DNA of 64,000 bases. Origin: Octopus vulgaris (Eukaryota). Each line of letters begins with the position of its first letter. The stretch's first letter is position 1. The translations under genes and the position numbers were made by a program. This document shows positions 30,515 to 38,786 of the stretch, piece after piece. A model generated the notes under the pieces. The model was not told the origin of the DNA and did not search any database. It saw only the letters and a list, made by a program, of their open reading frames with translations. The DNA lies in contig OX597826.1 in the NCBI GenBank assembly GCA_951406725.2, positions 33,604,001 through 33,668,000 on the forward strand, in the 5' to 3' direction.

Positions 30515-31075
30515 TCATCATCATCATCATCATCATCATCATTTTCATCATTCAATGCTTATTGTCTTGGATGGTGTAACCAGAACTGGGAAGCTAGAAA
30601 GCTGCACCAGACTCCAGTTTGCTTTTGCATGTTTTCTACAGCTGGATACCCTTCTTAACACCAACCACTCTACATATGTGTATGTATGTATTTGTATCTG
30701 TGTGTGTGTTTGTATATATATATATGGAAAACGGATGCTAAACGATGATGATGATGATATATATATATATGTATATATATACATACATACTTACATGCAT
30801 ACATACATACATACATACATACATACAGATATACATACATCATCATTATCATCATCATCGTTTAACGTCCGCTTTCCCTGCTGGCATGGGTTGGACGGTT
30901 TGACTGAGAACTGTTGAGCCAGAAGGCTGCACCAAGCTCCAATCTGATTGGGAAAAGTTTCTACAGCTGGATGCCCTTCTTAATGCAAACCACTCTGAAA
31001 GTGTAGTGGGTACTTTTACATTCCACTGGCATGAATGCCAATCATGTAGTACTGTCAATGGACACGTCAGCGATT
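30515..31075 (-). mobile_element. Cluster of RTE 3' UTR fragments
   Basis: Copies at ~30515-30670 and ~30838-31075 with (CAT)n tails. Confidence 0.75.
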
Positions 31076-31185
31076 TTGATTATATATATATATATATATA
31101 TATATAATAATAAATATTAGGGAATAAATCCAAATTTACAGGGAAAATCAGATTTAGGATTGAATCCAATTTTATAGTAAAATAT

Positions 31186-31398
31186 TATATAATATTAATT
31201 AGAGACAAAACCACTATTTTGCAAATCAAACAAAGAAAGACTTAATCCAATATATAAAAATTTTAATATAAATTAAATAAAATTATATTATAAATATAAT
31301 TTTATTTAATTTATATTAAAATTTTTTTATGTATTGGATTAAGTCTTTCTTTGTTTGATTTGCAAAATAGTGGTTTTGTCTCTAATTAATATTATATA
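31186..31398. repeat. Near-perfect palindrome, arms ~105 bp, 3-nt spacer at 31290-31292
   Basis: TAATTAGAGACAAAACCACTATTTTGCAAATC... mirrored by ...GATTTGCAAAATAGTGGTTTTGTCTCTAATTA. Confidence 0.9.
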
Positions 31399-31410
31399 TA
31401 TATATATATA

Positions 31411-31722: not shown

Positions 31723-31741
31723 GAGAGAGAGAGAGAGAAAG

Positions 31742-32050
31742 AGGAGCACTCCATCGGTTATGACGACGAGGGTCCCAGCTGATACGATCAACAGAACAGC
31801 CTGCTCATGAAATTAGCGTGCAAGTGGCTGAGCACTCCACAGACACATTTACCCCTAACGTAGTTCTCAGGGAGATTCAGTGTGACACAGAGTGTGACAA
31901 GGTTGTCCCTTTGAAATACAAGTACAACTCATTTTTGCCAGCAGAGTGGACTGGAGCAACATAAAATAAAGTGTCTTGCTCAAGGACACAACACATCACT
32001 GGGAATCGAACTCATGACCTTACAATCATGAGCCAAATGCCCTAACCACA
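31742..32050 (-). mobile_element. CORE-SINE family G
   Basis: Minus strand GTGGTTAGGGC..GAGTTCGATTCCC..GTGTCCTTGAGCAAGACACTT. Confidence 0.8.
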
Positions 32051-32053
32051 AAA

Positions 32054-32112
<59 letters not shown>

Positions 32113-32272
32113 AATATATATGTCCAAATCATTTATTATATATATAATAAATAATTTGGACAAAATAAGTCTAAGTTGATTAGTGTGTTTAATTGTTGAG
32201 CAGAGCACTTGATGATCATATAACAACAAGCCAGCCAACACTAAAAATCTCTAGTGAGACTTCTTTCTCAAT

Positions 32273-32311
32273 GTACCTGAAGAGACTGATGGGTCGAAAC
32301 ATATGTTGTAC
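32273..32311 (+). ncRNA. Minimal type-I hammerhead ribozyme with canonical core
   Basis: GTAC-CTGAAGA-GACT-GATG-GGTC-GAAAC-ATAT-GTT-GTAC; palindromic stem III ACATATGT; GUU site; AATAAA at 32314. Confidence 0.8.
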
Positions 32312-32596
32312 TTAATAAAGGTCTGATGCAAAATCCATCTCTTATTAATTAATACCATATATATATATATATAGAGAGAGAGATAGATAGATATTTAAGA
32401 AAGAAAAATATGTAAAAAATGCTCCAGAGATTTGTATAATAAAATTTATGCTAATATTAAGATCATAATGGAACAAAGAGATGTATTACAACATTATATA
32501 ATAAACTGGGGGTACCGGTTTCGTGTCTTATGCTTATCAAACTTCCTAGGTAAGTCATGGGAGAGGGCACCATTTTTGGTGTTGACATATATTATA

Positions 32597-32803
32597 TGCC
32601 TCGTCTGGCACCTGTGTCGGTGGCACATAAAATCACCCACTACACTCTCGGAGTGGTTGGCGTTAGGAAGGGCATCCAGCTGTAGAAACACTGCCAGATC
32701 TGACTGGCCTGGTGCAGCCTTCGGGCTCCCCAGACTCCAGTTGAACCGTCCAACCCATGCTAGCATGGAAAGCGGACGTTAAATGAAGATGATGATGATG
32801 ATG
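32597..32803 (+). mobile_element. RTE LINE 3' UTR with (GAT)n tail
   Basis: Shared family motifs. Confidence 0.85.
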
Positions 32804-35113
32804 ATATATATACCAAATGAAGAGGATTGACCAGTAAAAGTGGACAGCCTGTATGCTAGATATAGACGTTAAAATCACCATTTTCCACGGAGAATGTCCT
32901 CTCAAGAAAAATTTCAGCAAAAAACCAAAGCGTAAAAATAGGTAAGACAAATGAAAATATATGAAATAAAAAACGGTTACCTATGTACTAATTAGTTTCA
33001 CTTGTTAATAATTTACATATATGAATACATAAACATCTGCAAGATCATCAGCTTAGTCTGTCATTTACGAAACACAATTTCTAGAACTAGATACAGGGCG
33101 TTCGACCAAAATCCAGCATTATATAAAGTTCCACAAATTATATTTACGTGTATCTTTCAAATGCCTTCACTTCTATATATATACAGAAAGATAGATAGAT
33201 ATACATACATACATATACACACATACACACACACACACACATACACATACACACACTTAAAATTAGATATATATATAAGCACGCATAAAATTCAAGAGGA
33301 TTTGTAGATTAGTAAAACATTTGTTTAGCATAACAAACGAAAGAATCTGATCTTTCAGAGACTATTTTTTCATAATCTATTACCATTGTCACGTTAAGAA
33401 CCTCCACAAATTGTCTTAGATTCTGCCAATGTACTTCGTTTTTACTTTCTTTGTTCAGCTTGGCATTTATGAGCTTCGTATGATATAGGATCGCGTATAT
33501 AAATGTGTTTGTGTATACATGTGTGTATGGTTTGTATGTGTAATGTGTACTTACACACCCATATATATATATGTATTTACATACCCGTATACATGTTCTC
33601 ATGGATACACACATCTATCTATATACCTGTCCGTCTGTTTTTCTGTCTCTCTGTCAGTCTCTCTCACCTTCTCTTGTCATATAAATATATATGTGTGTGT
33701 GTGCGTGTGTGTGTGTGTGTGTGTGTATGTGTGTGTGTGTGAATAACTAGCTTTTATTTTTTTACTTTTTCAGACATTGATATATCTATCACGAGGTGTA
33801 ATTAATTAAAAGTACTTTATTTCTCTTCAGATTTCTTTTTTTGTATTTCAGCTCATAATGCACAAGTGAACCGTCATAATTTCTCTTCCAAATATGACAC
33901 CATTTTGATTTCTTGTCTGCAAAGAAGACATCTGAATGGAAATTGTAGCATACATAAGTGGAAACACTTCTGCTTACAATATTATTATCGTTCTTTCTTC
34001 TTCTTCTTCTTCTTCTTCTTCTTCTTCTTCTTCTTCTTCTTCTTCTTCTTCTTCTTCTTCTTCATCTCCTTCTTCTTCTTCATCTCCTTCTTCTTCATCT
34101 CCTTCTTCTCCTCCTTCTTCTTCTTCTTCTTCTTCATCGTCTCCTTCTCCTTCTCCTTCTCCTCCTCCTCCTCCTCCTCCTTCTTCTTCTTCCTCCTCCT
34201 CCACCTTCTCCTCCTCCCCACCACCTCCACCACCACCACCACTCCACCACTACCACCACAACAACAACAACAACAACCATCATCATTATCATCATCATCA
34301 TCACCATCATCATCCTTTTGTTTTACTCCCATTATGTAACAATGTCATTTTTACTTCTTTCCAGATATGATTTATTTAACTATTACCAAACAACGTTTCC
34401 TTCAGACTACTTGAGAAATAGGATTATAATTACTTCAAGAATGCTTACCCTCAACACTTGGAATGAAGAAAAAAAACAAGTTTGTTTTACAAAGTTTTAA
34501 AATTTTCTTTGCACACATTATTGTTTGACATTCAAAATGGCTACTGTACAGACATGACACAAATAAACGCTACAAAGGCTGCAGAACATACAACTACACG
34601 TACAAAAATGCTGTAAATGAAAGTTTTTTAGTGAATAATTAATTGATAAAAACATCTATAAAGTTCTTTGGAAACTGATGGCTACAGCAACAACAACAAA
34701 AGTTGTGACAACTCTTGTTCAGAATCTTCCTGTAACATGAAGTAAACAAACAGAATTTTGAGATCTGTTATAGTTATATTAAAACAAAACAAAAACAACT
34801 GTGGTGGGAATTTTATAAAATTAAAAAAAATTTCTTTGTCAAAGGAATCAAGAGGTAAAAATTACATCCTTCTAGTTCTGGCAGGATGGTAGTGTTCAAA
34901 CTTTGCCCTCATGTTGAGTGGTACAACTGGGAACTCGGCTGATCTTTAGAGAAATTCACTTAACTGTATAAACGTGGCCCTTATAGCTGTACCTTCAAAA
35001 CTGTGGACACAGCCAAAATGCAAACTGAAATAGTAAGGCTCACCCATAACTATTTCATATACATATAACTATATAGGGGTTATAGGGAATTTCACTTTAA
35101 GCCTATTTGCTTT

Positions 35114-38358: not shown

Positions 38359-38786
38359 ACAACATTTTGGCTGATATACCCTTCAGGCTTTATCAGGTGT
38401 CTTGGGGAAATTTCAAACCTGGGTTCTCATTCCTAAGATATTTTACGATGTTATTATTATTTTTATTATTATTATTATTTTTCAGGTCACTGCTTGTAAT
38501 CGAACTCAGAATCTTGGGGTTAGTAGCCCATGCACTTAACCACTACACAATATGCCCATGTGACCTGAATAACAACAACAACAACAATGATAATAATAAT
38601 AACATCGAAAAATACCTTAGGAATGAGAACCCAAGTTCGAAATTTCCCCAAGACACCTGATGAAGGCTGGAGGGTATATCAGCCGAAACATTGTGTTAAC
38701 AACAAACAAGATGAGGACAAATATCCATCAAATATAAATAATGTAAATAATGTAGATAATTCCTGATCTCTTAAATATAGAACTGC
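38359..38786. mobile_element. Head-to-head pair of family D elements (tRNA head, (TAA)n spacer, HHR tail)
   Basis: 38359-38490 is the reverse complement of ~38560-38695; tRNA-like head 38482-38558 on the minus strand. Confidence 0.75.
38652..38697 (+). ncRNA. Minimal type-I hammerhead motif (one CpG-type change)
   Basis: GACAC-CTGATGA-A-GGCTG-loop-CAGCC-GAAAC-ATT-GTGTT; ACAT in place of the ACGT palindrome. Confidence 0.7.

What the first reader, a model, noticed from the sequence alone, without database searches (positions are those of the whole stretch)
32121..32357. Canonical minimal hammerhead followed by AATAAA in a hairpin-capped insert
Every core nucleotide is canonical, and the predicted cut is after T32307. 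Both stem I (GTAC) and stem III (ACATATGT) are palindromic, favouring dimeric folding. AATAAA starts 3 nt after stem I, and a terminal hairpin lies at 32121-32162. If this region is transcribed, it could cut or terminate host RNA. A second partial motif (GAAACCGGTA, minus strand) lies at ~32512-32523.
Basis: partly seen in the sequence, partly recalled or inferred. Interest (0 to 1): 0.75.

Follow-up and report, generated by a model that had tools for sequence, protein, structure and literature searches.

The report
Decayed Hydra-clade Penelope end with hammerhead
This 237-base insert is a broken, folded-back end piece of a Penelope-like jumping gene with a few hundred copies in this animal genome; its hammerhead ribozyme motif is real, but this copy has lost part of one stem and is likely an inert leftover, not a switch for host RNA.

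Summary
The type I hammerhead at 32273-32311 is real. The insert is the 3' end of a dispersed Penelope-like retrotransposon family: related copies sit downstream of a decayed RT/GIY-YIG frame with the Hydra-clade marks. The window copy is two pieces joined head to head in a (TA)n tract: a direct arm ending at the family's near 3' end and an inverted arm ending at its far end, the known inverted-copy, one-sided-tail layout (11 of 17 pairs). The 'terminal hairpin' is a 19-nt inverted duplicate of that far end. The ribozyme is not natively minimal: the family has a 6-bp stem II and a likely extension of helix I that pairs with AATAAA; this copy alone has a 6-nt deletion in stem II (1 exact match genome-wide). 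The second motif is a whole, damaged U3-A8 hammerhead of another Penelope family on the opposite strand. Copies are about 10% diverged and decaying. I found no host exon nearby. The scan has reported the same kind of stub in other genomes. Ordinary; only the roughly 155-nt tail is slightly unusual.

The parts
32053..32120 (.). (CA)n then (TA)n tract, left flank; (TA)n is the inferred target, no target duplication can be read
   Evidence: (TA)n preference of Hydra elements in PMC8557442 File S1
32121..32139 (+). 19-nt copy of the family's far 3' terminus; left arm of the 'terminal hairpin'
   Evidence: matches the far ends of 6 other copies; fold
32143..32209 (-). Inverted arm: family positions 443-508 of a 512-position profile, running to the far 3' end (end of the tail); its last 19 nt are the right arm of the hairpin
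   Evidence: nhmmer E 1e-10
32207..32209 (.). 3-nt overlap (ACT) at the head-to-head junction of the two arms
   Evidence: gap -3; a contig of run X15 spans 32128-32248 with no difference (X15 may be the source sample)
32207..32357 (+). Direct arm: family positions 193-352, 5'-truncated, ending at the near 3' end
   Evidence: nhmmer E 1e-39
32264..32268 (+). 5' strand of the inferred distal extension of helix I (family TTTAT, here TTTCT: C32267 breaks one pair)
   Evidence: (27 contigs of X15 read A here, depth 4909 of 4941)
32273..32311 (+). Type I hammerhead ribozyme motif, predicted cut after T32307 (GUU triplet)
32284..32295 (+). Stem-loop II shortened by a 6-nt deletion private to this copy (family: 6 bp plus 6-nt loop, -9.1 kcal/mol; here -2.2)
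32314..32319 (+). AATAAA; family sequence, complementary to the family's upstream TTTAT
32357..32387 (.). (TA)n/(GA)n tract between the two elements, which face it tail to tail
32388..32587 (-). 5'-truncated 3' end of a second, unrelated Penelope-like family (family B)
   Evidence: GIY-YIG or RT remnants upstream in the same orientation in 5 of the 6 family B loci with a hit
32507..32546 (-). Family B hammerhead with U3-A8 core (core from 32540, predicted cut after 32513); stem II has 2 of 4 pairs broken in this copy
   Evidence: core TTGATAA in 15 of 16 copies parsed; same core variant described in PMC4209133

Best explanation
The insert is a decayed, two-armed 3'-end insertion of a Penelope-like retrotransposon family with Hydra-clade protein motifs, and its hammerhead is likely an inert passenger weakened by a deletion found only in this copy. 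How it likely arose: the parent's RT/GIY-YIG protein nicked both strands of a (TA)n tract and copied uncut element RNA from two fixed internal start sites about 155 nt apart (inferred from the two sharp 3' ends, by analogy with PMC11167929); both cDNAs stopped early and were joined head to head through 3 matching bases, leaving the tail on one arm only. A 19-nt fold-back duplicate of the far end made the hairpin (inferred). Later a slip between two AGAC repeats removed 6 nt of stem II and neutral decay added about 8% substitutions (shown as differences; the order of events is inferred). In the parent RNA the ribozyme would have cut after the GUU triplet, as a dimer through the palindromic stem III or helped by the element's protein (inferred from the literature, untested here).
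For: Family: 40 of 606 candidates scored gave 54 matches at 76-88% apart from self; 42 exact copies of the family's 18-nt stem II, 0 in the control; about 240 ribozyme-bearing copies estimated. Link to a PLE frame: 7 of 20 extended loci share the same upstream coding remnant in the same orientation across a variable microsatellite; 12 of 30 loci found with that remnant have the ribozyme unit downstream in the same orientation within 1.5 kb; locus L206 shows inverted end + YRDD RT/thumb + linker + EN + unit. The remnant's thumb matches clusters with PF26215 at 0.97 (family on 15-33% of members) and 700-800-aa proteins with DKT, Y(R/K)DD, CxC..C linker, CxxC and CxH, the Hydra marks of PMC8557442. 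Two 3' ends: 47 near, 44 far, 17 other of 108. Head-to-head pairs: 11 of 17 near+far, 1 near+near, 5 with another end. Deletion unique: 1 exact match in the genome. Decay: changes in stems are almost all one-sided; 13 of 83 copies keep core, stem I and stem II whole; median divergence 10%. No pile of copies starting at the cut: 1 of 77 inner starts at profile 295-305 by nhmmer; by eye one locus (L146, both arms) of 84 pieces starts at the cut.
Against: Inactivity is not shown. Predicted share of the active monomer fold does not separate it cleanly: 2e-5 here, 1e-3, 2.5e-3 and 8e-7 in the three exact family copies. No intact or full-length parent frame was found; DKT and RW(R/K) were seen only in relatives, not in this family's own copies. 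Pfam did not recognise the remnants (0 of 5 fragments over cut-off; best GIY-YIG E 0.012 in 1 of 7 relatives). The 11 of 17 count is inflated by searching with the window's own layout. No target-site duplication or empty site could be read.
Confidence: 0.88

Rival explanations
1. The copy has been kept or can act as a cis element that cuts or ends a host transcript running on the plus strand: the ribozyme cuts after 32307 or AATAAA is used as a poly(A) signal, freed here because C32267 weakens its pairing partner.
For: Intact core and stems with no substitution in 39 sites; AATAAA intact; the deletion still leaves a 4-bp hairpin.
Against: No host exon recognised in 64 kb; no cis partner for dimer; stem II destabilised by 7 kcal/mol and loop II lost; metazoan PLE hammerheads showed no monomer activity and low dimer activity in vitro (PMC4209133) and the Anolis one needed the element's protein, with no RNA-seq reads ending at its cut (PMC11167929); about 5 copies this clean are expected by chance.
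Confidence: 0.05
2. The insert belongs to a self-standing non-autonomous family (retrozyme or SINE-like unit of about 515 nt) that spreads through ribozyme-cut or circular RNA.
For: Many copies span the same 515-nt unit with an apparent fixed 5' start (23 of the pieces; 32 of 112).
Against: The apparent start is the edge of an internal microsatellite; coding remnants continue upstream. No tandem arrays; unit ends do not coincide with the cut. Retrozymes are defined by tandem repeats (PMC7229834).
Confidence: 0.05
3. The motif is a chance arrangement in AT-rich DNA.
For: Rfam score is under the gathering threshold; region folds no better than shuffles.
Against: 0 compact hits in 60 shuffles; same motif with a longer stem II in 83 aligned copies at the place where Hydra elements carry theirs.
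Confidence: 0.01

Closest known systems
Hydra clade of C-terminal EN+ Penelope-like elements, including Hydra-1_Obim (Craig et al. 2021, PMC8557442; passages, and part 2 of the supplementary file with File S1 Hydra sheet and File S2)
   Same: C-terminal GIY-YIG without the CCHH finger, CxCX5C linker, CxxC and CxH near the end, (TA)n targets, canonical sense-strand type I hammerhead near the 3' end, often with U at the cleavage position.
   Different: A different family: its hammerhead differs in all three stems from the one listed for Hydra-1_oBim. It has an internal microsatellite in the 3' UTR, an Asn-rich insert in the frame, two clear 3' ends about 155 nt apart, and only decayed copies were found.
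Complex insertions of EN+ PLEs: 5'-truncated copy plus adjacent inverted copy plus one-sided tail (PMC8557442 Fig. 2 legend; PMC3846280 passages; PMC11167929 parts 1-2)
   Same: Head-to-head arms, short overlap at the junction, tail on one arm only, AT-rich target.
   Different: Tail is about 155 nt instead of the 30-40 bp given in these papers; the inverted arm here holds only tail sequence; an extra 19-nt duplicate of the far end makes a tail-to-tail hairpin.
PLE hammerheads with a small palindromic helix III (Cervera and de la Pena 2014, PMC4209133, parts 1-2 of 4); Rfam RF00163
   Same: Type I topology, canonical core, 4-bp proximal helix I, palindromic helix III predicted to favour dimers; U3-A8 core variant of family B is described there.
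   Different: No extra base between positions 9 and 10.1; the family seems to have a distal helix I closing an internal loop; the window copy has a private stem II deletion.
Metazoan non-LTR retrozymes (PMC7229834 passages; bioRxiv 10.64898/2026.07.22.740005 part 1 of 5)
   Same: Type I hammerhead in a short non-coding stretch related to PLE ends.
   Different: Not tandem, not bounded by the cut, linked to a PLE coding remnant.

Membership tests
Type I hammerhead ribozyme | Conserved core CUGANGA / GAAA / NUH with three helices in type I order | tested here: met
   (RF00163, E 0.0016, under gathering score)
Type I hammerhead ribozyme | Site-specific self-cleavage | not testable with these tools
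   needs in vitro assay; predicted active-fold share 2e-5 as monomer
Type I hammerhead ribozyme | Covariation in helices | tested here: inconclusive
   stems I-III nearly invariant with one-sided decay; one A-U/G-C exchange in the distal helix I (7 G-C, 54 A-T, 11 A-C, 4 G-T of 83; Fisher p 0.012) that follows subfamily lines
EN+ Penelope-like element | Linked frame with RT and C-terminal GIY-YIG endonuclease | tested here: met
   in related copies, not in the window; decayed, Pfam below cut-off
EN+ Penelope-like element | Hammerhead near the 3' end, sense strand | tested here: met
EN+ Penelope-like element | 5' truncation, adjacent inverted copy, optional one-sided tail | tested here: met
EN+ Penelope-like element | Direct pLTR-ORF-pLTR partial tandem | tested here: inconclusive
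   none among the loci fetched; no full-length copy found; Hydra-1_Obim is also listed as 'no pLTR'
Hydra clade | CxCX5C linker | tested here: met
   stop-free frame of L215 and others
Hydra clade | No CCHH finger between GIY and YIG; CxxC and CxH flanking the conserved E and N | tested here: met
   frames of L155, L164, L205, L215 read by eye against PMC8557442
Hydra clade | DKT and RWK motifs in the N-terminal part | tested here: inconclusive
   DKT in 6 of 6 full-length relatives; N-terminal part of this family not recovered
Hydra clade | Insertion into (TA)n | tested here: met
   flanks printed
Hydra clade | RT phylogeny inside the Hydra clade | not tested
   no reference PLE set at hand and only the C-terminal RT part was found
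Non-LTR retrozyme | Tandem 150-450-nt repeats each with a hammerhead | tested here: not met
Non-LTR retrozyme | Circular RNA of the monomer | not testable with these tools
   no RNA holder listed

The most novel reading that the evidence does not exclude
In the parent element the hammerhead's helix I is extended by a distal stem that buries AATAAA, so folding or cutting of the ribozyme would switch the element's poly(A) signal and choose between two RNA forms, and the two AU-rich reverse-transcription start sites 155 nt apart would prime by pairing to the nicked (TA)n target, one per strand. That would give PLE hammerheads a testable role and extend the tail model well beyond 30-40 bp. One search for hammerhead + Penelope + polyadenylation signal found only a review (listing seen).
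Probability: 0.1. Interest if true: 0.5.

Novelty: new member of a known kind. Interest (0 to 1): 0.15.

Why it matters
As found, little: it is one decayed stub among hundreds, and both the ribozyme and the layout are described for Penelope-like elements. It adds a second Hydra-type family to an octopus-like genome and a clean example of the one-sided tail at an unusual length. If the buried-AATAAA or two-site priming ideas held, they would bear on the open question of what PLE hammerheads do and how PLE inverted ends form.

Tried and rejected
Rfam at gathering level: no match in the window. First reading as a free-standing 515-nt non-autonomous unit was dropped when 10-kb stretches showed shared coding remnants upstream of the microsatellite. 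Search of the genome with PF01541 found abundant other PLEs (148 matches; several 781-aa open frames, U3-A8 hammerheads) but none of the 30 loci matched family A; these proteins also failed to detect the family A frame. PF26215 is not in the library. Pfam on the remnants and on relatives gave nothing over cut-off. The search for homologous proteins returned one relative, an Octopus bimaculoides protein with an uninformative name. Expression: no RNA holder listed; the one guessed-RNA run laid gave only contigs dominated by neighbouring repeats, so nothing is concluded. Whether the stem II deletion is present in other individuals or species stayed open. Cleavage footprint in copies: not found. 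Covariation of the distal helix I: weak and confounded by subfamilies. Folding energies do not decide activity. Host gene: 150 of 245 filtered frames scanned, none over cut-off; shorter exons would be missed. Lunse et al. 2017 on dimeric PLE hammerheads could not be read; it is cited only through the review PMC6765202 (passages). Rows dropped before counts: duplicates of the same locus, pieces cut by a locus edge, pieces under 40 nt, and for the 83-copy alignment pieces not spanning the ribozyme; a few segmentally duplicated loci on contig C18 remain counted.

Full report
Observation. The motif is present as described and is not chance: it is the only compact type I hammerhead among 4 descriptor hits in the window, while 60 shuffles gave 0 compact hits. 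Rfam RF00163 matches at 24.9 bits, E 0.0016, under its gathering score. The hairpin at 32121-32162 is real (z -6.3). The window lies in a 2.8-Gb genome that is octopus-like by its one named protein relative; this is an inference at taxon level.

The insert is a repeat fragment. Searching the genome with 32121-32357 gave 54 matches from 40 scored of 606 candidates. Aligned copies define a unit of about 515 nt. On a 512-position profile of 10 natural copies the window has two pieces: positions 193-352 on the plus strand at 32207-32357 and positions 443-508 on the minus strand at 32209-32143, overlapping by 3 bases. The family has two sharp 3' ends, near (about 353) and far (about 508): 47 near, 44 far and 17 other of 108 ends. 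Of 17 head-to-head pairs, 11 combine one near and one far end, 1 has two near ends, 5 involve another end; part of this sample was found with the window's own layout as query, so the share is inflated. This is the inverted-copy, one-sided-tail layout described for Penelope-like elements (PMC8557442 passages; PMC3846280 passages), with a tail of about 155 nt instead of 30-40. The left arm of the 'terminal hairpin' is a 19-nt copy of the far end; one other fetched locus (L016) has a similar fold-back of the far end.

The parent. Many copies seemed to start at a fixed point, which first suggested a free-standing short element. Ten-kilobase stretches showed otherwise: 7 of 20 loci share an upstream coding remnant in the same orientation beyond a microsatellite of variable length. 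Searching with that remnant, 12 of 30 loci have the ribozyme unit downstream in the same orientation within 1.5 kb, and 5 have an inverted piece of the unit abutting the remnant's 5' end (two of the five are duplicated loci). Locus L206 shows the whole order: inverted end, YRDD motif and thumb, linker, endonuclease, microsatellite, unit. Its thumb finds 3169 proteins at E up to 0.001; six full-length ones of 702-806 aa carry DKT, Y(R/K)DD, a CxC linker and C-terminal CxxC and match the remnants along thumb, linker and endonuclease. The remnants have the CxCX5C linker, no cysteine pair between GIY and YIG, and CxxC and CxH near the end, the features given for the Hydra clade (PMC8557442). That paper's supplement lists an octopus Hydra family with (TA)n targets and a canonical hammerhead whose stems differ from this one. 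Pfam did not recognise the remnants, no full-length copy was found and no tree was built, so 'Hydra clade' rests on motifs and similarity.

The ribozyme. In 83 distinct copies spanning it stem II has 6 bp and a 6-nt loop. The window copy lacks 6 nt there; its 24-nt version occurs once in the genome, the family's 18-nt stem II 42 times and the full 45-nt family ribozyme 3 times, which gives about 240 copies at 0.91 identity per site. The deletion cuts the hairpin from -9.1 to -2.2 kcal/mol and removes loop II. One other copy has an independent 7-nt deletion at the same short repeat. The family also has TTTAT upstream placed to pair with ATAAA of the AATAAA (70-77 of 82-83 copies pair at each of five positions), and an older subfamily extends this to 7-10 bp; covariation is limited to one exchange that tracks subfamilies, so the distal helix is likely, not shown. 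Internally looped helix I extensions that need a matching loop II allow monomer cleavage in newt hammerheads (PMC6155905 passage). The window copy has a C at 32267 in that strand. Copies decay: median 10% from the majority, 33 of 83 with an intact core, 13 of 83 with core and stems I and II whole, stem changes nearly all one-sided. Ribozyme sites are somewhat better kept (0.89-0.95) than flanks (0.85-0.87), but the searches selected on these sites. Against inactivity: the window copy has no substitution in its 39 remaining ribozyme sites and keeps a 4-bp stem II; about 5 such copies are expected by chance. Predicted active-monomer shares (2e-5 here; 1e-3, 2.5e-3, 8e-7 in the three exact copies) do not decide the matter.

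Dimer, AATAAA and host RNA. The palindromic stem III could pair between molecules (-7.0 kcal/mol), as described for PLE hammerheads (PMC4209133 parts 1-2; review PMC6765202 passages). But the window has no second family copy and the second motif is on the other strand. Published PLE hammerheads were inactive as monomers and weak as dimers; the Anolis one needed the element's protein, was dispensable for insertion, and left no RNA ends at its cut (PMC11167929 parts 1-2). In line with that, copies here do not pile up at the cut (one locus has both arms starting there). AATAAA is in 56 of 83 copies, and ends carry (TA)n-like repeats, not poly(A). No host exon was recognised. Expression could not be judged.

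The second motif. 32388-32587 on the minus strand is the 3' end of another PLE family, with GIY-YIG or RT remnants upstream in the same orientation in 5 of 6 loci with hits. Its core is U3-A8 in 15 of 16 parsed copies, a variant already described. In the window copy 2 of 4 stem II pairs are broken. The two elements face each other across one (TA)n tract, most simply two insertions into a shared preferred target (inferred).

Mechanism, shown and inferred. Shown: family membership, two arms and their ends, junction overlap, private deletion, link to an RT/EN remnant, (TA)n flanks. Inferred: both-strand nicking of (TA)n, copying from two internal start sites on uncut RNA, joining by microhomology, fold-back origin of the hairpin, slippage deletion, present inertness. 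Age: about 10% divergence would be roughly 25-30 million years if the octopus calibration in PMC13282606 (passages) applies; that paper has 0 occurrences of hammerhead, ribozyme or Hydra.

Literature coverage. Seven searches found no paper on this family; Repbase and subscription journals were not searched, so it may be catalogued. Supplements were seen only for PMC8557442 (a term search and part 2 of 59). Earlier notes of this scan describe the same kind of fold-back PLE stub in other genomes; one prompted the look for a parent frame. Notes on permuted hammerheads in this genome concern other elements.

Verdict. Real hammerhead motif, ordinary origin, probably inert copy. New member of a known kind; interest 0.15.

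Noticed in passing
window 38657-38700 (+): Another PLE-type hammerhead core (CTGATGA, extra base, 6-bp stem II, GAAA) on the same strand 6.4 kb downstream; different family and different stem III.
   Followed up: no
window 42651 (-) and 18435 (-): Further hammerhead-like cores with 5-bp and 3-bp stem II; 42651 lies about 1 kb upstream, on the same strand, of a Hydra-like linker/EN remnant at 41599-41369 (-) (E 1e-5).
   Followed up: no
loci L096-L119 (e.g. L096, L101): A PLE family with CxxC linker and CCHH-type GIY-YIG has many 781-aa open frames, so it looks young; its 3' UTR hammerhead has a U3-A8 core, palindromic ACATGT stem III and often AATAAA or ATTAAA just after the cut.
   Followed up: partly
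family A copies, profile positions 175-210: 5' truncation points cluster here (30 of 77 inner starts), often next to (TA)n; may mark a transcription start or pairing of an ATATA patch with the target. Partly an effect of the search query.
   Followed up: partly
family B hammerhead (window 32540-32546, minus; loci L002-L030): An extra U sits between stem I and U3 in most copies and stem I has an A-C mismatch; family tail is about 40 nt.
   Followed up: no
L155, L164, L206, L215 (family A frame): The frame has an Asn-rich, (AAT)n-expanding insert between thumb and linker, like the N-rich inserts reported in rotifer Penelope elements (PMC3846280).
   Followed up: no
L146: Both arms of this locus begin at the first base after the predicted cut; the only such locus among 84 pieces.
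   Followed up: partly
window 31067-31353: A long AT-rich fold-back (arms about 31085-31240 and 31340-31410 by eye), probably a MITE-like or other inverted insertion.
   Followed up: no
window 31730-32040 and 32583-32810: Very high-copy SINE-like repeats flank the locus (contig depth 1000-fold above the insert).
   Followed up: no
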